64,000 nt of DNA, from positions 39,834-103,833 of the forward strand of contig JAQTMG010000003.1 of assembly GCA_028714455.1 (NCBI GenBank), written 5' to 3'. This DNA is from Patescibacteria group bacterium. GTDB taxonomy: Bacteria > Patescibacteriota > Patescibacteriia > CAIXNZ01. Below are positions 11,190 through 64,000 of the stretch, in pieces (the stretch's first letter is position 1; the number at the start of each line of letters is the position of its first letter). The notes under the pieces were generated by a model. That model searched no databases. It saw only the letters and a program-made list of their open reading frames with translations, and was not told where the DNA came from. The translations under genes were made by a program, and so were the position numbers.

Positions 11190-11191
11190 AA

Positions 11192-11322
11192 GGCGAAAAC
11201 GGACATTATCGTCGTTGTAGAGACGGGGCATACCCTGTCTCTACGTCATGTATCATATGACGATAATGTAGAGACGCGGTGCACCGCGTCTCTACGGCGT
11301 TTTACGCCGTCCGTTTTCGCCC
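11192..11322. repeat. Structured palindromic repeat (REP/MITE-like), copy 1, double-core
   Basis: Outer 13-bp inverted repeat GGCGAAAACGGAC..GTCCGTTTTCGCC enclosing two 28-bp palindromes: GTAGAGACGGGGCATACCCTGTCTCTAC (11217-11244) and GTAGAGACGCGGTGCACCGCGTCTCTAC (11268-11295). Confidence 0.85.
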
Positions 11323-17366: not shown

Positions 17367-17506
17367 GTCTTCCTCCTTGCGCCAAACACGGGCTTTTGCG
17401 CGTGTTTGGGGCGTCTTGAAATGAACATTTACTTTGTCTGTCAAAGTAATCCGCCACCTTGGTCGGATAGTTCAAGTTAACAAAAAAATGGTGTTTTTGT
17501 CAATAG

Positions 17507-17590
17507 GGGCGAAAACGCTTTAACGAAAGTAGAGACGCGGTGCACCGCGTCTCTACAATATAAAATAATTTTTTATAAGCGTTTTCGCCC
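17507..17590. repeat. Structured palindromic repeat, copy 2
   Basis: GGGGCGAAAACGC..GCGTTTTCGCCC outer IR around core GTAGAGACGCGGTGCACCGCGTCTCTAC (17529-17556). Confidence 0.85.
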
Positions 17591-37794: not shown

Positions 37795-38460
37795 TTATTT
37801 TTTAATATCGTCAGTTAGTCGGGGATAATTCAAACTGGTATATTGCCAATTTTCAGGCAAGCCATGCTTCAAATGATTATAAACTGTATAATTATAATGA
37901 TGATCCCAGTCCCTTTGCTTTTTTAAATGATTTTGATGAAAGCGGATAAAGTGGTCGTAAAAAGATAATTGCCATTTAAATTTTGGGTAAGGACTGCTAT
38001 TGCCAAATTTTTTTATAAATTCTTCCTTATAATGTTCAAGGTTTATTTTCCTCTCATTAAAATCATCAAAATTCCCATTAAATAAATTAAGCAACCTCAT
38101 CCTCATCCTTCGTAGGCGAAACGACGTCGTTTCGCCTACGAAGAGCGGTGAATTTTGATTAATCGTATATCCCATCACAATATTAACATTGCGTGAAAAA
38201 TTTTCTTTTAACGATTTGATTATTTTTGAAATATTATATTGGTTATTAGGTTCAATTATTAAATTAATATGATCATAAATTATGGAAAAGGCATACAGCT
38301 TAAATCCCTTTAATTGTTTACAAATCCCTAAATTCTCAATAAACAAGCTGCAAAAAATCGTCTCTTTAAAATATGGGAAATTATTCTTCGTCTTGATTAC
38401 GATGTAATATATAGCACCTGGAAAATATATCCGCTTAGAATAATTTTTGTGCAATTTCAT
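37795..38460 (-). CDS. IS200/IS605-family Y1 transposase-like protein (RAYT-like, HuH degenerate) carrying an in-frame palindromic insertion
   Basis: N-terminal YYIVIKTKNNFPYF, a degenerate HuH (DHINLI) and a C-terminal SFYDHFIR..Y motif shared with the paralogs at 53983 and 56300. A 38-bp perfect palindrome CTTCGTAGGCGAAACGACG/CGTCGTTTCGCCTACGAAG at 38111-38148 is translated in-frame (SFRLRRMRMR). Confidence 0.5.
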   Translation of the reverse strand: MKLHKNYSKRIYFPGAIYYIVIKTKNNFPYFKETIFCSLFIENLGICKQLKGFKLYAFSIIYDHINLIIEPNNQYNISKIIKSLKENFSRNVNIVMGYTINQNSPLFVGETTSFRLRRMRMRLLNLFNGNFDDFNERKINLEHYKEEFIKKFGNSSPYPKFKWQLSFYDHFIRFHQNHLKKQRDWDHHYNYTVYNHLKHGLPENWQYTSLNYPRLTDDIKK

Positions 38461-43912: not shown

Positions 43913-43999
43913 GGGGCGAAAACGCTTTCACGTAAAAAACGCTGCCGTAGAGACAGGGTATACCCTGTCTCTACTTTTTATTCAAGGCGTTTTCGCCCC
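43913..43999. repeat. Structured palindromic repeat, copy 3
   Basis: GGGGCGAAAACGC..GCGTTTTCGCCCC outer IR around core GTAGAGACAGGGTATACCCTGTCTCTAC (43947-43974). Confidence 0.85.
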
Positions 44000-44030: not shown

Positions 44031-45256
44031 TTAATATTTCCCAATATTTTTTACGTAAGTTCCTGCTTCGCCCGAATAACGAATCAAAAAAACGTCATAA
44101 AGAACCGCGTCTACCTCTTGCCACAAATTCTCGGCCGTTTCTCTAATAATGAAACACTGCATGCCGCTTAGCTTAAGATACAACGGCCAAATTTTTGTCT
44201 CAAAATCATCCTTTTGTTCAAGCGCTTTTTTTAGGTTAAAAATGGTCAGGCGCAAACGCAACTTAAACTTCCGAGTATTGCGCACCTGGCCATCAACCAC
44301 ATTCAGTCCTAACGTGTGCAGAATATGCCCTCGTCTGGCAAAATATGATTTATGCAAATAGTAGCGCTGATAATAGGCTCCTTTATTTTGCCACCAACCA
44401 TCTGGGTCAGGCGCCTCTTTCAGTTCATAACCCCTTTTAGCGATACGAAAAACCGCTGAAATAACGGGCGCATGCCACACAATGCAACCGCGATATTTCT
44501 CAATATCTTCCTGACCCGCTGGTTTCACAAAGTAATCGTCAGCGGAGGGATCATCTGGCCGTTCTTCGCCGCGCTCAATGTGTCTTTTTTTTGTTTCCGG
44601 CCAAAATTCTGGCGCTGTGATAAAAATGTTGTCCGCGTAACGTACGTAAGTACCCCTGATGTTCTTGGCTAGCTCGGAAAGCTCGTAATCAAAGGGTTCA
44701 AAACAAAAATCAAACAAGCGCGGGCTGGTTGGCGCGCCTTGTGGCAAACCAAAAGCCGGTAGCCCCTTTTTCTTTTGATTAAACCAGGTCGTCAAACAGG
44801 TCAAATAATAAGAGGCGTAATAACCGTACTTTTTTGACTTGAAAAAATTGAAGACCGCGCGACCGCTTGTCGAAGGAAAAGCATCCTTCACGTCAGTCGT
44901 AAAAACCGCCTGGTCTGCCTTAGCAATAGCCAATGCCGCCTCTTTGACTCCACCGCCAGAAAATCCATAGACATTTCTATGACGGTCCAGCGGCTCAAGA
45001 ATATTTTTGTTGACAGCCCGCTGAATTGTCATCAAATCAGGGTGCGGAATCTGTAAAATTCTTCTGCCGCCGCTTCTTTTAGCAATTGTAATGGTTGAAT
45101 AAAGCCATGGACTCCTGACAATTGCCGCCCACAAAATTCTACGGAATTTTTCGAAATCATTAAAAGGATAATTCAGTTCAGCGAACAAATACCAGGCTGC
45201 TTTTCTGCCTGATTCCCTTAATAAGGGATTTTTAATGCGCTCACGCGATTTCAACA
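44031..45256 (-). CDS. Stand-alone reverse transcriptase (retron/DRT-like; motif C = YADN)
   Basis: RT motifs in order: 1/2 RRILQIPHPDLMTIQRAV, A FTTDVKDAF, B' GLPQGAPTSPRLFD, C YVRYADNIF. The proposed start is TTG 45256, 8 nt after AGGAGG; the ORF track's ATG 45383 would add 42 aa lacking an RBS. GC content is elevated. No maturase, endonuclease or other fused domain was recognised. Confidence 0.75.
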
Positions 45257-45294
45257 ATATTATCACCTCCTTTCCATGTTTTTTGTTTTCAAAG

Positions 45295-45695
45295 AAAAGG
45301 GAGGGGTAAATTCCCCTCCCACCGCTGGTTACTCGCGAATCGCAAGCTGTGCGTGTACCGATCAAGAACCGGGTGATTTGCATATTGCCGTCAGAATTCT
45401 GACAGCCCCTTTCGGCTATTTTAGGATCTCTTAGGGTTCCGGCAATAAAGCTAACTGTCTTGATCTAATTTCGGATTTTAGGGTTAGGGAGGGGTGCAAG
45501 ATTTATACATTTACTTCAAGTTTTGGTTATCCCCTCTCCTTCTAATTAAACCGAATTACCGAGCCAGTTACCTTCGCCGAAAATTATCTAGAGAAGGATA
45601 CGCAGTTTATGTACCTAACTCAAGTTTCGGCTAATCCTTCTCTTTATCCTATTTGGCCTCAAAGCTCGCTAACCAGCGAATGATAATACTTTAGT
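45295..45695 (-). ncRNA. Candidate RT-associated structured ncRNA (about 380 nt) directly upstream of and co-oriented with the RT
   Basis: Minus-strand promoter-like TTGACT-17 nt-TAAAGT at 45716-45688. Two paralogous long hairpins have conserved loops (AAACTTGA..GTA.ATAAA) and different, individually complementary stems (GAGAAGGAT/ATCCTTCTC versus GGAGAGGGG/CCCCTCC). There is a 14-bp palindrome GTCAGAATTCTGAC. The 3' end is a GC-rich hairpin GGGAGGGG-AATTTA-CCCCTCCC followed by TTTTCTTTG just before the RT RBS. Confidence 0.4.
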
Positions 45696-50760: not shown

Positions 50761-50817
50761 ATAGTTTTAAAAAGGTAGAGACGGCTCTACCCTTTTATTT
50801 ATAATATTTTTCAGGTG

Positions 50818-51970: not shown

Positions 51971-52396
51971 TTAATTTTTGGCTAACTTTAAATCTTTTTT
52001 GAACGTCCAATATTTATTGGCGAAAAAATTCCAAAATAAACCCAGGGCGATGGCCACAAGCTTGGCCAGAAGGTCAAAAACGTTCAGATATTTTACGCTA
52101 AAATAAAAGATGGCGTTGTACAAAATAAAGTAAAAAATCGCTATCAAAAAAAATTTCAGATACTGGCTGGCCAGCTTATTTTCAAAATTGCCAAACGTCC
52201 AGTACTTATTCGCGAAAAAACTGAAAGTCATGGCCACCAGCACCGAGACGATGTTGGCGTAAAGAAAATACAAACCCAGCGCTCGGCTAAAAAATAAATA
52301 GACACCATAATCGATAATGGTGTTAAGGATTCCGACCAGGCAAAATTTTAAAAACTGCCTGACGATTTCTTTTTTTGTATATTTTTCAATCATCAA
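51971..52396 (-). CDS. GtrA-family membrane protein
   Basis: 141 aa with four TM helices and GtrA-like motifs (FLKFCLVGILNTIIDYGVY, KYWTF repeated twice). Confidence 0.65.
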   Translation of the reverse strand: MMIEKYTKKEIVRQFLKFCLVGILNTIIDYGVYLFFSRALGLYFLYANIVSVLVAMTFSFFANKYWTFGNFENKLASQYLKFFLIAIFYFILYNAIFYFSVKYLNVFDLLAKLVAIALGLFWNFFANKYWTFKKDLKLAKN

Positions 52397-53982
52397 TTTA
52401 AATTGGCTGCTGAAAAAAGACCCTTATCGGCGTCAATCGAGGTTGCGCCGGCGATTTCAGCGGCCAGATCATAAGCCGCCGAGCTGTCAATCGGAGCGCC
52501 GCTTTGATAATTGGCGAAAAATGAATCCGGCACGTCCTTAACTTTATTTTGCCAAGCAGATCCGAAAATCGAGAGTGCCAGGTCCTCTGATTTAACCCAG
52601 CGCAAAACCCCGCCGCGAGAAACCGCATAGACTTTGGGATCGGTGGCGATTTTCACCAAACTGCCTGGCTTGAGATTCACCACGCCGCCAAATGGAATCT
52701 CCGCCAAACTCGCGTCAGATATTTTTTGCACGCCGCTAAAATCAAGATACCAGCTTAGATAGGTCTGTTTATCTGGAAAGGCGTAGCGCTTGCCGTCAGC
52801 GCCATGATAATAAACCGTATCTTGAGACCCTTTGATGAGCGGATTGGCTACCGGCACGACGTTCAGAGCTTGAAAAATTTTAACCGGATTAATCAGCCCG
52901 TGACCCATTTCACCGGCAAATTGCGGACTGTTCGCGTCCAGGTTATCGGCATTATTTAAAATCAAGTCCATTATTTCCTGGCCGTTTAAACTCGGCTTAA
53001 ACGATTTAATAAGCGCCGCGAGTCCCGAGACGACCGGTGCCGCTAGCGAAGTGCCTGAATATCCCCCGCCGAAATAAGCGCTAAACGAGGCGTTGTTCGC
53101 GTCAAATAAAAGCGTGCCCCAAAAATCCTCGCCTGGCGCTATCACGTCAATGCAACTTGAACCAAAATTGGAAAAATTGGCGAGCCGGTCGTTTTTATCG
53201 CTGGCGCCCACGCCGAGCACGATGTTCTCGCCGTTAGTCCCCTGGAAACAGACCGGATACATTTTGATAGAATCCAGATTGATTGAATGGCCGAAAGAAC
53301 TTTCATTACCGGCGGCCGCTATAACCAGAATGTTATTTATATAAGCCCTCTCCACGGCTTTTTCCAGCGAAGCGTCGTAAGTGTCGCCGACAAAACTTAG
53401 ATTTATAATACTCGCCCCGTTATCAATGGCGTAATTGACGGCTCTGACCACGTCCGAAGTATCGCCCGCGCCGTTTTCATTCAAGACGCGCAGCGGCATA
53501 ATTTTTACGGTCCAGGCCAGGCCGACCGTCCCAAAACCATTATTGCCGACGGCGCCGATTACTCCGGCAATCAGAGTGCCGTGCAAGATCGCCTCCTTGG
53601 TACAGGTGGAAGCGGCCAGACAGTTCTCGCCAAATTTCGGCGTCGGATTATTATTATTTTCAATAAAATCCCAACCGTTGAGATCGTCAATATAGCCATT
53701 ATGATCATTGTCAATTCCGTCATTGGCAATTTCCTTTTGATTTACCCATATATTGTCATGCAAATCGGGGTGTGAAATGTCCACGCCAGAGTCAATCACG
53801 GCCACGATAACACTGCCGCTGCCCGTTTCCTGACCCCAGACTTTTGGCATCTGTAAATCGCTTAAATACCACTGTTTGGAATAATCGGAATCGTTTGGCA
53901 CCAATTCCGCGGCCAAACAAAAATTGCCCAAAGAAAACAGGGTCATAAAAATAATTAACTTTAAAATATTTTTATTTTTCAT
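52393..53982 (-). CDS. Secreted subtilisin-like serine protease (S8) with C-terminal shared ~115-aa domain
   Basis: Signal peptide; catalytic Asp, His and Ser regions (DSGVDISHPDL, HGTLIAGVIGAVGN, GTSLAAPVVSGLAAL); C-terminal domain homologous to those in 54576..56273 and 57099..61037. Confidence 0.85.
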   Translation of the reverse strand: MKNKNILKLIIFMTLFSLGNFCLAAELVPNDSDYSKQWYLSDLQMPKVWGQETGSGSVIVAVIDSGVDISHPDLHDNIWVNQKEIANDGIDNDHNGYIDDLNGWDFIENNNNPTPKFGENCLAASTCTKEAILHGTLIAGVIGAVGNNGFGTVGLAWTVKIMPLRVLNENGAGDTSDVVRAVNYAIDNGASIINLSFVGDTYDASLEKAVERAYINNILVIAAAGNESSFGHSINLDSIKMYPVCFQGTNGENIVLGVGASDKNDRLANFSNFGSSCIDVIAPGEDFWGTLLFDANNASFSAYFGGGYSGTSLAAPVVSGLAALIKSFKPSLNGQEIMDLILNNADNLDANSPQFAGEMGHGLINPVKIFQALNVVPVANPLIKGSQDTVYYHGADGKRYAFPDKQTYLSWYLDFSGVQKISDASLAEIPFGGVVNLKPGSLVKIATDPKVYAVSRGGVLRWVKSEDLALSIFGSAWQNKVKDVPDSFFANYQSGAPIDSSAAYDLAAEIAGATSIDADKGLFSAANLN

Positions 53983-54564
53983 TTAATATTCAATGAAATC
54001 TGTTTTAAAAATTGATTGATCACCGATTTCATAATTTCGCCAGGAAGAATAGGGATATTTTGAAATATCTTCAACTAAGCGAGCAGAAATCGGATTGTTG
54101 TGGATATAATTTAATTTTTCGTTAAATTTCTTGCCAGAATAGATATTAAAGTCGTAAAAACTGGGCTGCCAGATTCTCCTCATCCTCCGGGTAGCCAAGG
54201 CCCCTGCGCCTTGGCTTTTTAAGGGCAAGGCGTATGAGCCTTGCCTACCTATAAAAGAGATGGGTGGGTCTTGCCGACCCGACATGGAATCAAATAAATA
54301 TTCATTAATCAACCTGGAACTATATCCTTTCACCCCGTGCATTATTCTGGAAATGGTTAATTTCGGATTTTCAAAATAAACCAACAAATGGACATGGTCA
54401 GGCATAATACAATACCCATATATCTTCAAATTAAATTTTTTCCGATAATAATCGAGGTTATCTAAAAACAACCGACAGCATTTATCATCTGTAAAAAATT
54501 TTTGTCTGCCGTGTGTATTGGCCGTTACAAAATGGATATGACCCAAATCATTAAATCTGTGCAT
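53983..54564 (-). CDS. IS200/IS605-family Y1 transposase-like protein (RAYT-like) with in-frame structured insertion
   Basis: HuH motif MPDHVHLLV and C-terminal YDFNIY..NYIHNNPISARL (RAYT-like). A roughly 110-bp insert at 54178-54290 contains hairpins CCAAGGC..GCCTTGG and GGCAAGGC..GCCTTGCC and is translated in-frame (RRMRRIWQ..). Confidence 0.6.
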   Translation of the reverse strand: MHRFNDLGHIHFVTANTHGRQKFFTDDKCCRLFLDNLDYYRKKFNLKIYGYCIMPDHVHLLVYFENPKLTISRIMHGVKGYSSRLINEYLFDSMSGRQDPPISFIGRQGSYALPLKSQGAGALATRRMRRIWQPSFYDFNIYSGKKFNEKLNYIHNNPISARLVEDISKYPYSSWRNYEIGDQSIFKTDFIEY

Positions 54565-54575
54565 CTAATTTCCGT

Positions 54576-56273
54576 CTACGTGTGCGGCACAATTACAATC
54601 TTATCCTCGCTAATCGAAGTCGCGTTCGCCGTTGCTGTCAGCGGACTGAAATCTCCCACTAACGCGATGTCCGCGCCAACATTATAGTTCACGAAAAACG
54701 CGTCGGCCACGTCTTGGACTAAAGTGGCCCAATTATCGCCATAAAGAGCTTTGGCCAGCGCTTCGGTTTTTATCCAGCGCAAAGTACCGTGGGCATCAAC
54801 CGCGTACACTTTCGGATCAGTTGTGATTTTTATCAATTTTACACCCGGCTTATACGTCACATTGCCGCCGATGGAGATGGCCGCGAGTTGCGCGTCGGTA
54901 ATCGTCTTGACTGTTGAAAAATCCGGATACCAGGTCAAATACGTATTGAGCGTGGGAAAAACATAGCGCTTGCCGTCAGTGGCATAATAATAAACAGCCG
55001 GACCCGATGCCTTAATCAAATCGCCGTAAGAAATATTGGCCCCGACCAGTCCGGGCGCGTTAATCGTAATTGAGAGAGTGCCGATAACCTGATTATCCAC
55101 TTTAACTGATACTGTCTTAACGCCCAAAGAGGTGGATCTTGCTTCAAAAATTATTTTGCCGTTCACGTCTGAATTATTATTAGGAATAGTGATGATAACT
55201 CCCGAACTGGCGTCGACCACGATTTGTTTATTGGGAAGTGGCTGCCCCATGGAATCCTTAATGGTCACGGTAATGGTTGATTTATCTAAGCCATCATTGG
55301 CCAAAACGATTTTATCGGCCGCGACCGAGGAATTGGAGACCGAGAATGTCTGCGCGTGCGCGCTGACTGTAATCGAGCCTGTCTGCGTAAAATTTCCCCA
55401 GCCATCATGGGCCTGCAAACTGATGGTGTGCGTGCCGTCGCTGATGTTTTCCCAGTCGTAACGCCAGGTGTAAAAATTAACATCCATTTCCTGCACTGGA
55501 TATTCCTGACCGTCAATAAAGATATTGAAATCGCGGATATAACTGCCGCCCTCGTCTCTGGCCATGCCCTGGATCATTAAGCTGTTGGTGTTTAAAATCT
55601 GGCCGTCAAATAAATTGGTAATAACCAGTTTGGGTCCGAACATATCAATGGAATAGGTGCTGACTACCTGGCTGTTCGCGTTTGTCACATTGTCATCGGT
55701 CGGTCCGTTATTTTTGGCAGCCGTGAAAACGCCGAAATCGCCCACGTCAAAAAGGCCATTGGCATTATTGTCCGTAAGAATCGGAATCTGCATCAAAATC
55801 GTGGCCGTACTCGTGTAGTCGGAGAATGTTTCTACGGAGACAAAAAATCTTTTGCCAATGCTTGCGCTTTCATTCAAATTTTGAATATACCAAGATTCAT
55901 AAGTCGTGGTGTAATTAAAATTGCCGATTACCCGGTCAACACCCATGCCTTGAAATCCGGCTGGCCCGTCATCGGCCCAGAGCGTCATGTATTTTATATG
56001 GCTTAAATAATTGGCCGTGCCCAGATTTTTCAAGCCGAGAGCGTTAAGCGTGTCTGTGCCGCTGATATTAAGCGTGAAATCCATAATCAGGCCGTCAAAA
56101 GTCGCTCGATAAAAAGTCGCGTAAGGCGCCTGCAGGTTAATAACTGAACTGGTGGTAAAGGCCAGAGATGGCTGCGCGCCCAAAATCGTCAGCGCCAAAA
56201 TCGCGATGATGATAAAAATTTTTCTTCCGCCAAAGGCAGACCCGCCTCTGACGGGCATAATGTTTTTTTGCAT
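54576..56273 (-). CDS. Membrane-anchored surface protein with Ig-like (Big) domains and C-terminal shared ~115-aa domain
   Basis: N-terminal TM/signal, Big-like beta-sandwich repeats and a C-terminal block AVYYYATDGKRYVFP..DPKVYAV..LRWIKTE. Confidence 0.5.
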   Translation of the reverse strand: MQKNIMPVRGGSAFGGRKIFIIIAILALTILGAQPSLAFTTSSVINLQAPYATFYRATFDGLIMDFTLNISGTDTLNALGLKNLGTANYLSHIKYMTLWADDGPAGFQGMGVDRVIGNFNYTTTYESWYIQNLNESASIGKRFFVSVETFSDYTSTATILMQIPILTDNNANGLFDVGDFGVFTAAKNNGPTDDNVTNANSQVVSTYSIDMFGPKLVITNLFDGQILNTNSLMIQGMARDEGGSYIRDFNIFIDGQEYPVQEMDVNFYTWRYDWENISDGTHTISLQAHDGWGNFTQTGSITVSAHAQTFSVSNSSVAADKIVLANDGLDKSTITVTIKDSMGQPLPNKQIVVDASSGVIITIPNNNSDVNGKIIFEARSTSLGVKTVSVKVDNQVIGTLSITINAPGLVGANISYGDLIKASGPAVYYYATDGKRYVFPTLNTYLTWYPDFSTVKTITDAQLAAISIGGNVTYKPGVKLIKITTDPKVYAVDAHGTLRWIKTEALAKALYGDNWATLVQDVADAFFVNYNVGADIALVGDFSPLTATANATSISEDKIVIVPHT

Positions 56274-56299
56274 ATTTTTTAAAATTATAATTTTAATAA

Positions 56300-56878
56300 T
56301 TAATTTAAAATGTTAAATTCAACCGCCTCTTTGGGATTATCACGATCAAATTCCCAATTTACCGGATTATTGGCAATATATCCTTTTATCCGCGCGTAAT
56401 CTTCATCGTTTTTGATAATGTGTTCGTAATAATTATCTTGCCATTTGAAATCAAGGTTATTTTCATGGCATTTGCGCGTAACGGCACCTTTAAATGTATT
56501 AACGACAGACGATAATGATTTTGGTTTGACGTGGCCAAATTTATTCCGTGTAGAGACAGGGTATACCCTGTCTCTACAATTTTTTGCAAAATCATTTTCG
56601 TCGCATTCAATTTCAATTATCCCATGAACATGATTTGGCATGATTATCCAATCGTCCAATCTTATATTATTAAAATGCTTTGGTATCTCCAACCAACAAT
56701 CAAAAACGACTTTCCCAACCTCCGATAAATAAACATTATTATCCTTAATTTCACCCAAATCGTATATTCTGTCTTTGGTGCAAATTGTCACGAAATAAAA
56801 ACCTCCTTTGGCATAATCCCATTCCATCAAACGCATACTCGCCACGCGATATTTATTTTTAAAATATTCGTCCCCCAT
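56300..56878 (-). CDS. IS200/IS605-family Y1 transposase-like protein (RAYT-like) carrying a copy of the GTAGAGAC palindromic repeat in-frame
   Basis: HuH motif MPNHVHGII and C-terminal WQDNYYEHIIKNDEDYARIKGYIANNP (RAYT-like). The core GTAGAGACAGGGTATACCCTGTCTCTAC lies at 56549-56576 inside the ORF, translated RDRVYPVSTR. Confidence 0.6.
   Translation of the reverse strand: MGDEYFKNKYRVASMRLMEWDYAKGGFYFVTICTKDRIYDLGEIKDNNVYLSEVGKVVFDCWLEIPKHFNNIRLDDWIIMPNHVHGIIEIECDENDFAKNCRDRVYPVSTRNKFGHVKPKSLSSVVNTFKGAVTRKCHENNLDFKWQDNYYEHIIKNDEDYARIKGYIANNPVNWEFDRDNPKEAVEFNILN
56549..56576. repeat. Structured palindromic repeat core, copy 4 (intragenic)
   Basis: Identical to the core of copy 3; no outer GGGGCGAAAACG inverted repeat. 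Confidence 0.85.
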
Positions 56879-57036
56879 TTTTTATTTTTATTTTCCTACC
56901 TCTATTTTACACCAAAAACCCAATATTAACCAAACACAACCCCCGCGTTCTCCCCTCCTTTTCAAGGAGGGGTTCGGCCTGCCTGCCAAAGCTTCAGCGC
57001 AGGCGGGGCAGGTGGGGTAAAAAATTTCCCCAATCA

Positions 57037-57068
57037 AAACAGCCCCGCGAGCGCGGGGCTGTTTTTTC
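57037..57068 (-). terminator. Rho-independent terminator of the adhesin gene
   Basis: CAGCCCCGCG-AG-CGCGGGGCTG hairpin flanked by A and T runs. Confidence 0.6.
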
Positions 57069-57098
57069 TATATCAACGAATCAACAAATTTAGATCAA

Positions 57099-60000
57099 TT
57101 AGGGCTTCACTAAGGCGTTGGCATAAATGCCGCCGCGGAAGATGACATCATCCTCAACATAGTTACCACCATTGTAATTGATACTCCAATTCAGGTTAGG
57201 TGTTGATGCAGCAGCGTCGTTTAACAGAAGCTGGACTGAATCACCAAGGTTAGTCATAGCAGCGGTATTACCGTAAATATACAGTTTCTTGGTCTGACCC
57301 TTTGGTATGACAAAGTCCTTCTGGGCAAACAAGAATGCAGCAGCAGCAGGAGTACAGATATCTGTTGCGGCCAGAGTGGCATTATCCAAGATATTACCAT
57401 CTTCATCCTTCAAAACAAGGCCGGCGCTAGGTCCAGCGGTGCAGTGAGAAGAGATAGTAATCTTCAGTGTGTTTGCGCCAACGACTGGAAGAGTTGGACC
57501 ATCGAAAGTAACATCATCATTATTATCAGCCTTAACATTGAAGATAGCTAACAAAGTGTTAGCACCTGGTACTAGAGCGCCTGATGGCGAACTAGCATTC
57601 AAGCTGAAGTATGGTCGTGACTCATAAGCGAAATGGGTAGCAGGAATTGCTGCTTGCGCATTGGCTGTCTGTTGGCCAGATGACTTACCAGTTACATGGA
57701 TATCACCGGCGGCAAAAACTCGAGCCTGGATAGGATCGGCGTTACCTACGGTAACAGCATCAACCGGAGCGACATCAATTTTAACTGTCAAGGTAACACT
57801 GCCATTGGCCGGAATAGTAACTGTGTTGTCAGCCAAGACAAAGGTGGCTACAGATCCGCCAGAAGCAACAGCAACAGGATCGGTGATAGCACCGCCGTCA
57901 GCTCTTGAACTTGAATATAGATACCAGCTAGTTGCTACTGGTCCAAGAAGCGCTGTGGTTCTGTTAGTTCTAGCCCAAGTACCAGTTGTACCAACGACTG
58001 TAACAACAGTAGCAGATGACACAGTAAAGTTATTAACGCCGAAAGTAGTAACCGTGAAAGGACCGCTGCCTAATACTGGAGTAGAATCGGTTCCGCTCAA
58101 TCTGACAGTGTCACCGGTTGCGAGACCATGACCAGCGGAAGTAATAACTGGTAATGCTGTCCAGGTGCCTGCCGTAGCTGATGTTACACAACCAACGGGG
58201 GCGGCATAAGTAAAGGTAGCAGCGCCAGTTGTTGTAGCAGCAAATGTACCATTACATGTGCCATAAGCAGCGCCATTGACTGTAATGTTTATTGTAGAAC
58301 CAACAACTATTGGCAATGTGTGGTTAACAGCAGAAGTTACAGTTACTGTGCCAGCGGCCGAAACGATACCAGTAGTAGCACCAGTTGTTAAGCTGATTGC
58401 AGTGATAGCACCATTAGTACCTGTATCAGTCACCCTTACATCGTCAATGTCTAAATCCTCAACATTGTTAGCCTGTAATTTATAGACGGCCACAGTTTGC
58501 TTTGTTGAGCTAGCTATTAGCAATGATTTGCTTGGTGATGAAGCGTCTAATGATGTAGTTAAGATACCGGCAGCCGAATCAGTCATTTGCTGACCAGCGC
58601 CGCTATAAGCTACTGCAGGTGTGTTGCCTGTAGATTTGCCCGAAGCGGTTACGGCAGAAACATTCATGGTATGTCTATTTGGAGTAACAGTGTCACCCAG
58701 AGTAGACAAATCACCAACCACCGCAATCTTTACATAGCTACCCTTTGGCACAGTAATAACTTGAGTCAAAGAAATGGCTTTTGTAGCGGGGCTAACACCA
58801 GCAGCTGGCTGTTCATTGTTAGAGACTTTGGTCTCATACGCGTCGCCGCGTGTTGAGCTAGCTGGAGTTAAATCAGCCCAGATTGATAAATTCTGAATCT
58901 CTCTAAAGTCAGCACCTACTACAACGCTAGTAAAGGTGTCTCTAACTGTAACTGCGGAAACTCTCACATCTTCGCCAGAAGCAGTTGCGTCTAATGAAGC
59001 AGTTGCCCAGACAAAGTTTTGAGTACCGACAGCCACAGTGCGAGCGGCGGGTTGAGTTAAAGTTGCAGCACTCAAGGCAACAGCCAATATAGTTTGGACA
59101 TTGCCGTTTGCTGCAGCTGTAGAGATCGTCATGTTGTCCCTAGTGTTCATGCCAGTAGCAGTGATGTCAGTATTTGGAGTAGCAATATCAGCGCGAATAG
59201 TGCCGACAGCAGCTACGCCTGCGTTAGCAATAATATCAGTCTTAAAGGTGAATTTATGAGTACCTGTTGGCACAATATATGTATCTGTAAATACAGCGCA
59301 AACGCCAACAAAGCCGCAAGTAGCGCCAGTAGCATCATTGGTTATTGCTCTTGGACCAGCAATCGTGCTGCCAGTTTCATCAACCAATTTAGCGTTTGTT
59401 ATATTTGCCGGTAATAGACCTCCACCTAGAGTCAATTTAACTATAGTTCTTGTAATTTTGGCTGCTTCACCTCTAACTTCAAAAGCCCAAGTCGTCAAGG
59501 GCTGTTCTGAAGCTTGAGTGATATTGCCAGTTGCAGGAGAAGAGACATCCTTAGTTATATTTAAGATGCCGGTATTAACTGTTTGGTCAGTACCCTTACC
59601 ATCCCAACCATTAAGTATGACTGGAGTAAGGTAGAAACCATAAGTATTACCCTTAACAGTAACTAGGGCGTCTGTACCATCGGTTAAATCAAGGTTCAGA
59701 GTATTACCCGAACCGCTGACCACGTCGGTGTAGACCTGGAAAATATGTTTTGCGCCCTTTGGAATCACTACGTTCAAGGTACTAAAAGTAACTCTTGAAT
59801 TAGCATCAAAGGCAGCGACAGTTCCCAGAGTTCTACCCTCTGTCAAGCTGTACAATTCAATGTTGGCATAATCAACATTGCTAGCCGTACCAGCTTCTAA
59901 CAAGCTGATGGTCTCAACTGTTAGATCTTCGCCGGGACCAGCATTAACTTCAAATTGAGAAACCTGGACCCTCTTAGAGCCAGCGTCTGGCTTGCTGTCT

Positions 60001-61037
60001 GGCGGCAAAGCGTTTTTATCAACGCTAACAGAGCCTAAATCAGCCACCAAAACTACACTCATATAATTTCCCATAACAGGGAAAGCGCCAGTTACGGTGC
60101 CAGCATCCAAAACAACATCAGAAGCTGTTGAAATACCTAGAGCGATTGTATTGCCCCAAGGTGCCAAGCCAATACTTGCTCTGATAAAATAAGAAACAGA
60201 GGTATTGGCAGGGATAGATAATGATGGCACAAAAGTAACTAAAGCTTTGCTATTTGAACCCAAGCTAGCTACGCTACCAACAGTTGCGCCATTCATAGCC
60301 ACTAATTTGATGTTTGAAACATCATCATTAGAGCTTAAGCCAGTGCGTGTGATGTACATTGACTTAACTGTAGCAGCGGTATTGCCTGCGCTTAAAGTAA
60401 TTTTAGTAAAATTAGCAGAAGCAGTATCAGCTACCGTAGAAGCAGCTGGAGTATCAGAAGCCAAAGAAACATTTAGATTGCCACCTGTTGTAACTGAACC
60501 AGCTAAGCCCTTATCAACGTTAATTGATTGAGCGCCAGCTGTTGCGGCAGATGGAGAATAATCAGAAGCATTGTTTATCGGTGCGCCAACAGTGTAGTTG
60601 GTGAAAAATGCGTCTGACACATCCTCAACCTTGCTTGTCCAGGTTGCTCCGTACAAAGTAGAAGCAATGGATTCAGTAGTAATCCATCTTAATTGACCAT
60701 TAGCGGCTACGGCATAAACTTTGGGGTCAGTGGTAATTTTTACCATCTTAACGCCTGGTTTATAAGTAACGTTGCCTCCAATAGCGATAGTAGCTAATTC
60801 GCCGTCAGTGATTGTTCTCACTGTGGAAAAATCAGCGTACCATGTCTTGTATGTCTTCTCATTTGGGAAAACATATCTCTTGCCATCAGCACCGTAGTAA
60901 TAAACGGCTGGTAAAGATGCCTTGATCAAATCGCCCGAGCTGAAAGTTACAGCTTGCGCGCTTGGAACAAAGCCTGCCAAACCGATTGACCACATAATGG
61001 TCACCACCACAATACTGACAGTAAAAAACTTTTTCAT
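57099..61037 (-). CDS. Giant secreted surface protein/adhesin (Thr/Ala/Gly/Val-rich beta-sandwich repeats) with N-terminal shared ~115-aa domain
   Basis: Signal peptide MKKFFTVSIVVVTIMWSIGLAGFVPSAQA (start moved to this Met; the ORF track extends to 61121). It has an N-terminal AVYYYGADGKRYVFP block and roughly 1200 aa of low-complexity Ig-like repeats. Confidence 0.6.
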   Translation of the reverse strand: MKKFFTVSIVVVTIMWSIGLAGFVPSAQAVTFSSGDLIKASLPAVYYYGADGKRYVFPNEKTYKTWYADFSTVRTITDGELATIAIGGNVTYKPGVKMVKITTDPKVYAVAANGQLRWITTESIASTLYGATWTSKVEDVSDAFFTNYTVGAPINNASDYSPSAATAGAQSINVDKGLAGSVTTGGNLNVSLASDTPAASTVADTASANFTKITLSAGNTAATVKSMYITRTGLSSNDDVSNIKLVAMNGATVGSVASLGSNSKALVTFVPSLSIPANTSVSYFIRASIGLAPWGNTIALGISTASDVVLDAGTVTGAFPVMGNYMSVVLVADLGSVSVDKNALPPDSKPDAGSKRVQVSQFEVNAGPGEDLTVETISLLEAGTASNVDYANIELYSLTEGRTLGTVAAFDANSRVTFSTLNVVIPKGAKHIFQVYTDVVSGSGNTLNLDLTDGTDALVTVKGNTYGFYLTPVILNGWDGKGTDQTVNTGILNITKDVSSPATGNITQASEQPLTTWAFEVRGEAAKITRTIVKLTLGGGLLPANITNAKLVDETGSTIAGPRAITNDATGATCGFVGVCAVFTDTYIVPTGTHKFTFKTDIIANAGVAAVGTIRADIATPNTDITATGMNTRDNMTISTAAANGNVQTILAVALSAATLTQPAARTVAVGTQNFVWATASLDATASGEDVRVSAVTVRDTFTSVVVGADFREIQNLSIWADLTPASSTRGDAYETKVSNNEQPAAGVSPATKAISLTQVITVPKGSYVKIAVVGDLSTLGDTVTPNRHTMNVSAVTASGKSTGNTPAVAYSGAGQQMTDSAAGILTTSLDASSPSKSLLIASSTKQTVAVYKLQANNVEDLDIDDVRVTDTGTNGAITAISLTTGATTGIVSAAGTVTVTSAVNHTLPIVVGSTINITVNGAAYGTCNGTFAATTTGAATFTYAAPVGCVTSATAGTWTALPVITSAGHGLATGDTVRLSGTDSTPVLGSGPFTVTTFGVNNFTVSSATVVTVVGTTGTWARTNRTTALLGPVATSWYLYSSSRADGGAITDPVAVASGGSVATFVLADNTVTIPANGSVTLTVKIDVAPVDAVTVGNADPIQARVFAAGDIHVTGKSSGQQTANAQAAIPATHFAYESRPYFSLNASSPSGALVPGANTLLAIFNVKADNNDDVTFDGPTLPVVGANTLKITISSHCTAGPSAGLVLKDEDGNILDNATLAATDICTPAAAAFLFAQKDFVIPKGQTKKLYIYGNTAAMTNLGDSVQLLLNDAAASTPNLNWSINYNGGNYVEDDVIFRGGIYANALVKP

Positions 61038-61415
61038 AAGTAAATTCTTTAAATTGCTCTCGATCCAGAATCTGGCTGCTGGAAAATAAGGTTTTGACAT
61101 CCGTCTTCGCTTCGCCTCCAAGCCAACTCGGAGTCGACCTTTGCCAAAGCAAATGGGATCCCTATAGTCCGCTTAACCAAACCGTGAAAAGAGAGTGTTA
61201 ATTAGCTTCTTACCTCGCGGTAAGAAAATCCTCGGCCTTGCGGCCTCGGTTTTACTCACACCTTTCGGTATGAGCCAGCCCCAAACCGTCTGGTTTAGGG
61301 GTGGATGAACCACACTGCGATAATCACCAAATTCCAAGCATCAAATCCCAAACAATATGGATAGTAGTTATAACAGTGTGATTCACCCAAATATATTTAA
61401 TTATTAATTTTCAAT

Positions 61416-63919: not shown

Positions 63920-64000
63920 TATTGGCCGCTAATTACGCTCAACTAACTTTGCCAACCTTCCCCCAAAAGGCTCGAACACTTAAGTGTTCGAGCCGTGATT

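What the first reader, a model, noticed from the sequence alone, without database searches (positions are those of the whole stretch)
37795..38460. In-frame perfect palindromes embedded in all three IS200/RAYT-like Y1-transposase paralogs (RPE-like behaviour)
37795..38460 carries the 38-bp perfect palindrome CTTCGTAGGCGAAACGACG|CGTCGTTTCGCCTACGAAG. 53983..54564 carries a roughly 110-bp block of three hairpins. 56300..56878 carries the genome's GTAGAGAC repeat core. In each case the reading frame is preserved. Two of the inserts begin with the same CTCATCCTC (encoding R-M-R). Palindromic elements inserting in-frame into protein genes are a known but rare phenomenon (Rickettsia palindromic elements). 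Here they specifically occupy the putative REP-mobilising transposase genes. This suggests either target preference of the element for its own mobiliser or inactivation/domestication of these genes.
Basis: partly seen in the sequence, partly recalled or inferred. Interest (0 to 1): 0.75.

Follow-up and report, generated by a model that had tools for sequence, protein, structure and literature searches.

The report
REP hairpins inside RAYT transposase genes
Three domesticated "REP-associated tyrosine transposase" genes of a Patescibacteria genome each carry, in frame, a copy of the DNA hairpin that such enzymes normally recognise. This was described in 2018 for one enzyme subclass, and it is shown here to be conserved and compensated in two further lineages.

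Summary
All three ORFs are Y1 HUH proteins whose closest solved structure is E. coli TnpA_REP (4ER8). Each carries a GTAG...CTAC "double-foot" REP, or an inverted REP pair, inside a low-confidence surface loop.

These are not recent RPE-like insertions and they do not inactivate the genes.
- All 37 full-length homologues of paralog 1 have a palindrome at the same position. Its sequence differs between genomes through compensatory changes (97.6% paired, 11 of 14 pairs changed on both sides), and it is read in at least two frames.
- Paralog 2 homologues keep an inverted GTAG-REP pair whose stems covary.
- Paralog 3 homologues, from Patescibacteria to Cyanobacteria, keep GTAGAGAC...GTCTCTAC, translated as RD..VST or VET..SL.
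- Where extragenic copies flank the gene, they often match the in-gene copy at 0-1 of 28 nt, which indicates concerted evolution.

Quentin et al. 2018 (PMC6006769) already described REPs inserted in frame in subclass 2.4 tnpA_REP genes and listed GTAGAGAC REPs. Paralog 3 is therefore a known case. Paralogs 1 and 2 extend the phenomenon to non-2.4 lineages, at a different loop (alphaC-beta4). The function of the in-gene hairpin remains inferred.

The parts
37795..38460 (-). Paralog 1 (P1): a 221-aa RAYT-like Y1 protein. Its HuH motif is degenerate (D-H-I-N). The WQ motif and the Tyr (YTVYNH) are kept.
   Evidence: ORF. Pfam Y1_Tnp 4e-7. NCBIfam REP_Tyr_transpos is the best hit, 57 bits, below the cutoff of 80. 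The AF2 model's top Foldseek hit is 4er8_A.
38108..38143 (.). 36-bp perfect palindrome (double-foot REP, core GTAGGCGAAACGAC|GTCGTTTCGCCTAC). It encodes LFVGETTSFRLR in the alphaC-beta4 loop.
   Evidence: RNA fold -33.5 kcal/mol, z = -6.3. A homologous palindrome is present in 37 of 37 family loci. Covariation. The encoded residues 101-135 have pLDDT below 50.
53983..54564 (-). Paralog 2 (P2): a 193-aa canonical RAYT with DHVH, WQ and YIHNNP motifs.
   Evidence: Pfam 6.7e-15. NCBIfam REP_Tyr_transpos 112.9 bits, above the cutoff of 80. The family profile hits 4er8_A at 2e-14. AF2 pLDDT 88.
54190..54249 (.). In-gene REPIN-like pair: two GTAG-footed hairpins in inverted orientation. On the + strand they read GGTAG-CCAAGGC..GCCTTGG and GGCAAGGC..GCCTTGCC-TACC. 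They encode GRQGSYALPLKSQGAGALAT.
   Evidence: The two REPs pair into one long hairpin when folded as ssDNA or RNA (z = -3.9 and -4.0). The same architecture, with covarying stems, occurs in homologues L130-L136.
54266..54280 (.). Weak 5-bp hairpin that is a degenerate partial duplicate of the REP left arm. It encodes SGRQDPP and is unique to this protein.
   Evidence: The insertion is absent from all homologues in alignment A2.
56300..56878 (-). Paralog 3 (P3): a 192-aa TnpA_REP of subclass 2.4 type, with NHVH, WQ and YIANNP motifs.
   Evidence: The motifs match Table 1 of PMC6006769.
56549..56578 (.). 30-bp perfect palindrome: a GTAGAGAC...GTCTCTAC double-foot REP. It encodes CRDRVYPVST in the beta3-alphaC loop.
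   Evidence: The inner 28 nt are identical to the extragenic copy at 43947-43974. The same foot and stem occur in homologues from other phyla, in other reading frames.
43947..43974 (.). Extragenic GTAGAGAC double-foot REP, 28 of 28 nt identical to the P3 in-gene copy. It is nested in a composite element (43913-43999) with outer inverted repeat GGGGCGAAAACGC.
17529..17556 (.). Extragenic GTAGAGAC double-foot REP (centre GCGGTGCACCGC), inside composite element 17506-17590.
11217..11295 (.). Two extragenic GTAGAGAC REPs: 11217-11244 (imperfect) and 11268-11295 (perfect). Both lie inside composite element 11190-11322.
38096..38104 (.). The 9-mer CTCATCCTC. Its second copy is at 54179-54187. Each copy lies 2-3 nt outside the palindrome foot and encodes R-M-R.
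   Evidence: Not conserved among P2 homologues. Significance unresolved.

Best explanation
All three ORFs are domesticated, vertically inherited TnpA_REP/RAYT-class Y1 HUH proteins, not insertion sequences. Each carries a copy of a cognate-type REP inside its own reading frame, in a permissive and probably disordered surface loop.
- P1: a double-foot G[TA]AG...C[TA]C palindrome, between alphaC and beta4.
- P2: an inverted REP pair (REPIN-like), also between alphaC and beta4.
- P3: a double-foot palindrome between beta3 and alphaC.

Shown here:
- The in-gene element is ancestral to each family.
- It is kept as a nucleic-acid palindrome by compensatory change.
- The encoded peptide is a passenger, because the frame and sequence vary.
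- The in-gene copy evolves in concert with extragenic copies next to the gene.

Inferred:
- The in-gene REP is selected as the enzyme's own cis-linked ssDNA hairpin substrate, a resident or 'master' REP. This would guarantee co-inheritance of the enzyme and its hairpin in very compact genomes.
- RAYT-dependent cleavage and rejoining at the GTAG foot would exchange or homogenise it with nearby REPs.
- Fold-back copying of one arm from the other is the simplest explanation for symmetry that runs through the hairpin centre.
- In the P1 clade the change from HuH to HuN may have weakened cleavage while hairpin binding was retained.
For: Identity of the proteins:
- Pfam Y1_Tnp hits all three.
- NCBIfam REP_Tyr_transpos is the best hit for all three, and P2 scores above the cutoff.
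- All three family profiles hit only or best 4er8 TnpA_REP.
- The Foldseek top hit for P1 is 4er8_A.

Not insertion sequences:
- The paralogs are mutually divergent (A2 against A3: 22% identity; A1 against A2: E = 2.7e-12).
- They are packed among housekeeping genes on the same strand.
- The arrangement big protein / P3 / P2 / Big_1 / S8 peptidase is syntenic in another MAG.

Conservation of the palindrome:
- 37 of 37 P1-family loci carry a 22-56-bp palindrome at the same position, in genes of 25-41% G+C.
- Over 14 pairs, 97.6% of cells are paired against 72% in shuffles. Eleven pairs change on both sides, 123 cells in all, with 0 of 500 shuffles reaching this. Slide controls give 33-52%.
- G.T and A.C mismatches number 6 and 4, so there is no wobble excess.
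- The two central pairs are complementary in 33 of 36 and 32 of 36 sequences.

Frame independence:
- P1 family: EGDxxxCRL against KATSRDVAF.
- P3 family: RD..VST in 58, VET..SL in 30, plus other frames, among 112 complete homologues. This was verified on DNA in Tolypothrix and other loci.
- P2 family stems covary (GGCAAGGC, CCGAAGC, CCAAGAGCA, TCGAGGC) while the GGTAG...CTACC feet stay constant.

Passenger peptide: the REP-encoded residues have pLDDT of about 50 or less, against a core above 90.

Concerted evolution: 12 of 37 P1 loci have flanking copies. In 7 of these the flank copy differs from the in-gene copy by 0-1 of 28 nt, while the nearest other genome differs by 1-6 nt. The P3 in-gene copy is identical to the extragenic copy at 43947. 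Tolypothrix has the same REP 20 bp upstream of the start codon.

Specificity control: only about 4 of 66 distant Y1_Tnp relatives carry such a palindrome.

Literature: PMC6006769 reports in-frame REPs within subclass 2.4 tnpA_REP genes and double-foot REPs, with 25 GTAGAGAC entries in its Table S1.
Against: - No biochemical or expression data exist for any of these proteins, so a substrate relationship between each protein and its in-gene hairpin is inferred from family knowledge (E. coli TnpA_REP, PMC8266576, PMC3479197).
- Within this 64-kb window the P1 and P2 palindromes have no extragenic copy. A 'REP family' for them is shown only in other genomes.
- None of the three genes here sits in a classical REPtron.
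- Most P1-family feet read GAAG rather than the canonical GT[AG]G.
- The P1 HuH is degenerate, so that paralog may not cleave at all.
- Universal retention could also come from recurrent re-insertion at a hot spot rather than from selection for a function.
- Covariation counts on related sequences overstate independence.
- The fold-back step is purely inferential.
Confidence: 0.6

Rival explanations
1. Recent, sporadic RPE-like insertion of a mobile palindrome into the genes of its own mobiliser, leading to inactivation or decay.
For: GTAGAGAC REPs are dispersed in this genome. They can land in frame in unrelated genes elsewhere: an RND transporter in L018 and cobN in Tolypothrix. Intragenic GTAG REPs in many genes are documented (PMC3733652). 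P2 has a private extra partial REP copy.
Against: The element sits at the same position in 37 of 37 P1 homologues down to 35% identity, in all P2 homologues examined, and in P3 homologues across phyla. The ORFs are intact, the cores are conserved and fold well. The HuN change in P1 is clade-wide, not linked to the insert. Synteny is conserved.
Confidence: 0.05
2. The palindrome acts at the mRNA level: a strong mid-ORF RNA hairpin throttles translation or serves as an RNase or protein binding site, giving autoregulation of a potentially toxic nuclease. The DNA-level REP identity is secondary.
For: The predicted RNA hairpins are very stable: -33.5, -52.3 and -24.7 kcal/mol, with z from -4 to -6. 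The structure is conserved and compensated in all families. REPs are known to act as RNA elements in 3'UTRs (abstract of PMC3733652).
Against: Symmetry extends through the four central nucleotides, which an RNA hairpin does not need. There is no excess of G.U-compatible over A.C mismatches (6 against 4). The same palindromes, with the same feet, occur outside genes and upstream of start codons. The conserved G[TA]AG...C[TA]C feet are the hallmark of ssDNA recognition by TnpA_REP (PMC6006769). No T-run follows the hairpins. No Rfam family matches.
Confidence: 0.2
3. A neutral passenger at a hot spot. The loops are simply the only places in a RAYT gene that tolerate insertions, and REPs generated next to the gene (local hopping in a REPtron) keep re-inserting or gene-converting there. 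The in-gene copy has no function.
For: The encoded peptides lie in low-confidence loops. Quentin et al. suggest little impact on activity. Copy number and length vary: 1-5 tandem units in P0104, P0008, P0023 and P0040, and two in-gene copies in L022. Identity with flanking copies fits ongoing exchange.
Against: There is no loss in any of 37 P1 loci or in the P2 set, although palindromes are prone to deletion and these genomes are streamlined. In this window the P1 and P2 in-gene copies persist without any extragenic copy in 64 kb. Twenty-five of 37 P1 loci have no flanking copy within 3 kb, so there is no nearby source for re-insertion.
Confidence: 0.15

Closest known systems
TnpA_REP subclass 2.4 (Quentin, Siguier, Chandler, Fichant 2018, PMC6006769), which corresponds to RAYT Group 4 of Bertels et al. 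2017. These genes carry REPs inserted in frame within tnpA_REP.
   Same: P3 matches in every listed respect: NH[IFV]H, WQ, YIxNNP, about 194 aa, a variable insertion between beta3 and alphaC, a double-foot GT[AG]G...C[TC]AC REP, and a REP inside the gene without frame disruption. GTAGAGAC REPs are listed 25 times in that paper's Table S1.
   Different: P1 and P2 are not 2.4. They have DH.H or DH.N, YIHxNP or YTVYNH, and the insertion lies between alphaC and beta4. Their REP sequences (G[TA]AGGCGA..., GTAGGCAAGG) are absent from that paper's table, which called in-gene REPs unique to 2.4. Patescibacteria are not mentioned in its main text.
E. coli TnpA_REP / REPtron (4ER8; Messing et al. 2012, PMC3479197; Corneloup et al. 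2021, PMC8266576)
   Same: It is the closest solved structure for all three families. It shares the HuH + WQ + Y...NP core and recognises a GTAG-footed ssDNA hairpin.
   Different: In E. coli the REPs flank the gene and are imperfect, bulged hairpins. Here the REP is inside the ORF and is a perfect palindrome or an inverted pair. No flanking REPs are present in this window.
Intragenic GTAG/CGTC REPs and Rickettsia palindromic elements (Di Nocera et al. 2013, PMC3733652; RPEs as cited there)
   Same: Short palindromic repeats are tolerated in frame inside protein genes and encode extra loop residues. The same behaviour is seen for a GTAGAGAC REP in an RND transporter (L018) and in cobN (L137).
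   Different: Those insertions are scattered in unrelated genes, at non-conserved sites. In the RAYT genes the position is fixed family-wide and the palindrome is maintained by compensatory change. The RPE-1 type elements are much longer, and no cognate enzyme is known for them.
REPINs (Bertels & Rainey 2011, PMC3116915)
   Same: The P2 insert consists of two inverted REPs that fold into one long hairpin.
   Different: REPINs are defined as abundant extragenic populations. The P2 element is a single intragenic copy in this window.

Membership tests
TnpA_REP / RAYT (class 2 TnpA_Y1) | Y1 HUH fold with an HuH motif, the W[QE] motif, and a single catalytic Tyr in Y...NP | tested here: met
   P2 has DHVH, WQ and YIHNNP. 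P3 has NHVH, WQ and YIANNP. P1 keeps WQ and the Tyr but has DHIN and YTVYNH, so it is only partly met for P1. 4er8 is the best PDB hit for all three.
TnpA_REP / RAYT (class 2 TnpA_Y1) | NCBIfam equivalog NF047646 at or above its cutoff of 80 bits | tested here: inconclusive
   P2 scores 112.9 bits and passes. P1 (57.2) and P3 (63.2) fall below the cutoff, but this model is still their best hit, ahead of IS200.
TnpA_REP / RAYT (class 2 TnpA_Y1) | Low copy number, divergent paralogs, housekeeping-like context; not an IS with identical copies, terminal hairpins or tnpB | tested here: met
   The three paralogs are about 20% identical to each other. No tnpB is adjacent. The context is syntenic in another MAG. 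Homologues sit within same-strand housekeeping arrays.
TnpA_REP / RAYT (class 2 TnpA_Y1) | Association with a family of GT[AG]G-footed REP hairpins flanking the gene (REPtron) | tested here: inconclusive
   In this window no REP flanks any of the three genes, and only the P3 type has extragenic copies. In other genomes, 12 of 37 P1-family loci and the Tolypothrix P3 homologue have matching flanking REPs. The P1-family foot is often GAAG.
Subclass 2.4 TnpA_REP (Quentin 2018) | NH[IFV]H, WQ and YIxNNP motifs; median length about 194 aa | tested here: met
   Met for P3 only: NHVH, WQ, YIANNP, 192 aa. P1 and P2 do not meet it: they have DHIN and DHVH.
Subclass 2.4 TnpA_REP (Quentin 2018) | A variable insertion between beta3 and alphaC that holds a double-foot REP, in frame | tested here: met
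   In P3 the palindrome lies directly after the HuH strand and before the SLSSVVNTFK helix. For P1 and P2 the insert is between 4er8 residues 85 and 90 (alphaC-beta4), so the feature is not met for them.
Rickettsia palindromic elements (RPE) | A Rickettsia-specific family of palindromic repeats, most of them longer than REPs, scattered in frame in many unrelated genes, with no associated enzyme | tested here: not met
   The elements here are 28-60 bp, GTAG-footed, sit at a family-conserved site in RAYT genes, and have a candidate cognate enzyme. The only resemblance is that they are tolerated in frame.
IS200/IS605 insertion sequence | Multiple near-identical copies, subterminal left-end and right-end hairpins, Y...Q motif, often tnpB | tested here: not met
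   The Y motif is Y...N[PH]. The IS200 NCBIfam model scores below its cutoff. There are no identical copies and no terminal hairpins.
REPIN | Two inverted REPs forming a long hairpin, present as an abundant extragenic population | tested here: inconclusive
   The structural criterion is met by the P2 insert. The abundance criterion is not met within the 64-kb window. The whole genome was not available.

The most novel reading that the evidence does not exclude
The in-gene hairpin is not a tolerated insertion but the obligatory 'master' copy of each RAYT-REP pair. Enzyme and substrate would form one heritable unit. Extragenic REPs would be spawned from, and homogenised against, the in-gene copy. 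The palindrome would be periodically regenerated by RAYT cleavage at one foot followed by fold-back (snap-back) copying of one arm from the other. That mechanism would explain why symmetry runs through the centre and why both arms change together. The HuN clade (P1) would then be a derived hairpin-binding, non-cleaving version.
Probability: 0.2. Interest if true: 0.7.

Novelty: new member of a known kind. Interest (0 to 1): 0.42.

Why it matters
What RAYTs and REPs do for the cell is still an open question. The 2018 description treated in-gene REPs as a curiosity of one subclass that probably had no effect on the protein.

The data here add three points. The in-gene hairpin occurs in at least two further Patescibacteria-centred lineages, at a second structural site. 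It is retained in every homologue examined. It is kept palindromic by compensatory change while co-evolving with neighbouring extragenic copies.

This makes a concrete hypothesis testable: that the enzyme and one copy of its hairpin are selected as a unit. It also offers very small natural enzyme/substrate pairs for biochemistry. On the practical side, peptides such as VETQNFASL, RDxxxxVST and VGxTxxxxRL in 'transposase' annotations are translated REPs, not protein motifs.

Tried and rejected
- The metagenome scan with the P2 alignment returned mostly distant Y1 proteins at 21-44% identity, not close P2 homologues. I used it only as a negative control. Close P2 DNA came from exact-protein look-ups.
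- The apparent 'upstream REP copies' in L136 (4047 and 4242) are duplicated gene fragments beside a run of N. They were discarded as REPtron evidence.
- I considered that the outer inverted repeat of the three composite elements (GGGGCGAAAACGC) might be the extragenic counterpart of the P1 palindrome (GGCGAAACG). It was not supported. The resemblance is only 9-10 nt, and a similar composite in L005 has an unrelated outer repeat.
- Rfam has no family at any of the hairpins.
- Look-ups for P0026 and P0001 found no record, so a possible fourth paralog on the same contig (P0001, 92% identical to P3) could not be placed.
- One regular expression for REP peptides was badly written. That count is ignored.
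- Intrinsic-terminator reading: no T-run follows any of the three hairpins.
- Protein-level conserved loop: rejected because of the alternative reading frames and the low pLDDT.
- P2 could not be assigned to a Quentin subclass. Its motifs are intermediate between 2.2, 2.6 and 2.7, and those authors' HMMs are not available here.
Full report
**What is there**

The window (40.7% G+C) comes from a Patescibacteria/Parcubacteria-type genome. The identical P2 protein is annotated from a Patescibacteria MAG, and the closest homologues are all Patescibacteria.

Three minus-strand ORFs hit Pfam Y1_Tnp:
- P1, 37795-38460, 221 aa
- P2, 53983-54564, 193 aa
- P3, 56300-56878, 192 aa

Each contains a G+C-rich palindrome:
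- P1 has a 36-bp perfect palindrome at 38108-38143.
- P3 has a 30-bp perfect palindrome at 56549-56578 with the GTAGAGAC core.
- P2 has two GTAG-footed hairpins in inverted orientation (54190-54249), plus a weak upstream hairpin (54266-54280) that is a degenerate duplicate of the REP arm.

Every palindrome starts with GTAG and ends with CTAC. This is the "double foot" REP of Quentin et al. 2018. The two P2 hairpins fold together into one REPIN-like long hairpin.

None of this is chance. GTAGAGAC occurs 11 times against 0.25 expected. Perfect palindromes of at least 28 bp are expected about 2e-4 times per window (my own arithmetic), and five are present.

**What the proteins are**

- NCBIfam's REP-associated tyrosine transposase model is the best hit for all three. 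P2 is above the cutoff.
- Profiles of all three families hit E. coli TnpA_REP (4ER8) best or exclusively among solved structures.
- The AlphaFold model of P1 has 4er8_A as its top Foldseek match.
- P2 has DHVH, WQ and YIHNNP. P3 has NHVH, WQ and YIANNP. P1 has WQ and the Tyr, but D-H-I-N in place of HuH.
- P1 and P2 are sister lineages (hhalign probability 99.9, E = 1.6e-36). P3 is more distant (E = 2.7e-12).
- They are not insertion sequences. The paralogs are about 20% identical, have no tnpB and no terminal hairpins, and lie in same-strand gene arrays.
- The order large surface protein / P3 / P2 / Big_1 protein / S8 peptidase recurs in another MAG (L136). That MAG also carries a P1 homologue (L002).

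**Where the inserts lie**

Against 4ER8, the P1 and P2 inserts fall between residues 85 and 90, which is the alphaC-beta4 loop just before the WQ motif. The P3 insert lies just after the HuH strand, between beta3 and alphaC.

In the AlphaFold models the cores are confident: P2 mostly above 95, P1 about 90. The REP-encoded residues have pLDDT of about 50 or less.

**The key test: orthologues**

P1 family. A scan of GTDB genomes gave 37 full-length loci at 35-78% identity. Every one has a perfect or near-perfect palindrome of 22-56 bp at the same position, in genes of 25-41% G+C.
- Aligned on their centres (A4), 14 pairs are 97.6% complementary against 72% in column shuffles.
- Eleven pairs change on both sides (123 cells), with 0 of 500 shuffles as high. 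Slid registers give only 33-52%.
- The inner six pairs use three or four different Watson-Crick pair types each.
- The palindrome is read in at least two frames: EGDxxxCRL or VGExxxFRL, and KATSRDVAF.
- Four loci have frameshifts elsewhere in the gene, but never in the palindrome.

P2 family. Eight further genes examined at DNA level in seven loci (L130-L136) keep the GGTAG...CTACC feet. Their stems differ with full compensation. In two genes the pair has collapsed into one long double-foot palindrome.

P3 family. Homologues from Patescibacteria, Cyanobacteria, Bacteroidota and Omnitrophica all carry, at the same loop, either RD....VST or VET....SL. DNA from Tolypothrix (L137), L138 and L136 shows that these are two reading frames of the same GTAGAGAC...GTCTCTAC palindrome. 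Some proteins have 2-5 tandem copies.

Control. Among 66 distant Y1_Tnp relatives, about four have such a palindrome and 40 have no hairpin of at least 8 bp at all.

The conserved feature is therefore nucleic-acid structure, not peptide. It is ancestral to each family.

**Relation to extragenic REPs**

In the window, the GTAGAGAC type has four extragenic copies, at 11217, 11268, 17529 and 43947. The last is identical over 28 nt to the P3 in-gene copy. All are nested in three 85-133-bp composite elements with outer inverted repeat GGGGCGAAAACGC. The P1 and P2 palindromes have no other copy in the 64 kb.

In other genomes, 12 of 37 P1-family loci have the same palindrome within 3 kb of the gene. 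In seven of these the flanking copy differs from the in-gene copy at 0-1 of 28 positions, while the most similar in-gene copy from another genome differs at 1-6. Tolypothrix has an identical copy 20 bp upstream of the start codon. This is concerted evolution between the in-gene and neighbouring REPs.

**DNA or RNA?**

The RNA hairpins would be very stable. However:
- Symmetry runs through the centre. The two central pairs are complementary in 33 of 36 and 32 of 36 sequences, although a hairpin loop needs no such symmetry.
- G.T and A.C mismatches are equally rare, at 6 and 4.
- The same elements occur outside genes.
- The conserved feet are the known ssDNA recognition motif of TnpA_REP (PMC6006769; PMC8266576).

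I therefore favour a DNA-level constraint, and I keep an mRNA role as a rival at about 0.2.

**Comparison with the literature**

Quentin, Siguier, Chandler and Fichant (2018, PMC6006769) defined TnpA_Y1 subclass 2.4: NH[IFV]H, WQ, YIxNNP, about 194 aa, found in Cyanobacteria, Bacteroidetes and various other phyla. They state that, as "a unique feature", REP sequences are found inserted within the tnpA_REP genes themselves without disrupting the frame, in a variable beta3-alphaC region. They also note that this subclass has double-foot REPs. Their Table S1 lists 25 GTAGAGAC REPs.

P3 is therefore a textbook member of a known case.

P1 and P2 are not 2.4. Their motifs differ, their insert is at alphaC-beta4, and their REP sequences are absent from that table. 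I found no later paper describing in-gene REPs in these lineages or in Patescibacteria.

Di Nocera et al. 2013 (PMC3733652) documented in-frame GTAG REPs in many unrelated genes. I saw the same for a GTAGAGAC REP inside an RND transporter ORF (L018) and inside cobN (L137).

**Verdict**

The interpretation as recent RPE-like insertion or inactivation is not supported.

The best-supported reading is a conserved, compensated in-gene cognate REP in three RAYT lineages. One of these was already described. The other two extend the phenomenon to a new site and to new lineages, including a clade with HuH changed to HuN (44 of 52 members).

Two parts of the explanation are inference: that the in-gene copy is selected as a cis-linked substrate or master copy, and that it is homogenised by fold-back copying.

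Noticed in passing
window 11190-11322, 17506-17590, 43913-43999: Three MITE-like composite elements of 85-133 bp. Each has a 13-14-bp outer inverted repeat (GGGGCGAAAACGC...GCGTTTTCGCCCC) enclosing one or two GTAGAGAC double-foot REPs. All lie just downstream of genes. A similar nesting, with an unrelated terminator-like outer repeat, occurs in L005 5500-5600. REPs may insert into hairpin loops.
   Followed up: partly
window 44031-45383 (-): A 450-aa ORF with an RVT_1 reverse-transcriptase domain (Pfam 6e-12) lies about 30 bp from the end of the 43913-43999 composite REP element. Its type (retron, group II intron or DGR) was not determined.
   Followed up: partly
window 52393-61121 (-): P2 and P3 are interleaved with three large secreted or surface proteins: an S8 peptidase, a Big_1/Invasin_D3 protein and a 1340-aa protein. 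All three share a roughly 110-aa module (..YYYxxDGKRYxFPxxxTYxTWYxDFSxV..TDPKVYAV..LRWI..). The arrangement is syntenic in MAG CAZPVP01 (L136).
   Followed up: partly
L018 4808-4835: A GTAGAGAC double-foot REP lies in frame (VETRRGVSLQ) inside an RND/AcrB-type transporter ORF of more than 868 aa in a Peribacteria MAG. This is an intragenic REP in a non-RAYT gene.
   Followed up: yes
L137 4584-4613 and 7952-7981: In Tolypothrix sp. NIES-4075, one GTAGAGAC REP lies inside the cobN ORF. Another, identical to the in-gene RAYT copy, lies 20 bp upstream of the RAYT start codon.
   Followed up: partly
P1 family (alignment A3; proteins P0185-P0243): The second His of the HuH motif is Asn (DH[VILF]N) in 44 of 52 homologues. 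Only the most distant members keep HuH. The Y motif is YTVYNH.KH rather than Y...NP. This may be a non-cleaving or altered-metal clade.
   Followed up: partly
P0104 (Tolypothrix brevis), P0118, P0008, P0023, P0040: Some subclass 2.4 homologues carry 2-5 tandem copies of the REP-derived peptide, for example TDVETRNF repeated five times. The in-gene element therefore expands and contracts.
   Followed up: no
window 50773-50790: A short GTAG-footed hairpin, GGTAGAGACGGCTCTACC, is followed by a T-run, so it looks like an intrinsic terminator. It may be a minimal REP derivative.
   Followed up: no
window 63969-63994: A 26-bp perfect palindrome, GGCTCGAACACTTAAGTGTTCGAGCC, lies in an intergenic region. 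It has no GTAG foot and is unrelated to the REP families.
   Followed up: no
L136 4047-4300: Partial duplicates of the P3-homologue gene flank a run of N in a MAG scaffold. The repeated RAYT paralogs or palindromes may be breaking assemblies. The Logan contig carrying P2 (L139) also ends about 90 bp upstream of the Big_1 gene, close to where the P3 gene would lie.
   Followed up: partly
protein P0001 (not placed): A 186-aa protein, 92% identical to P3 and carrying the same CRDRVYPVST segment, is listed with a longest contig of the same length (110,823 bp) as the contig carrying P2. It may be a fourth paralog outside the window.
   Followed up: partly
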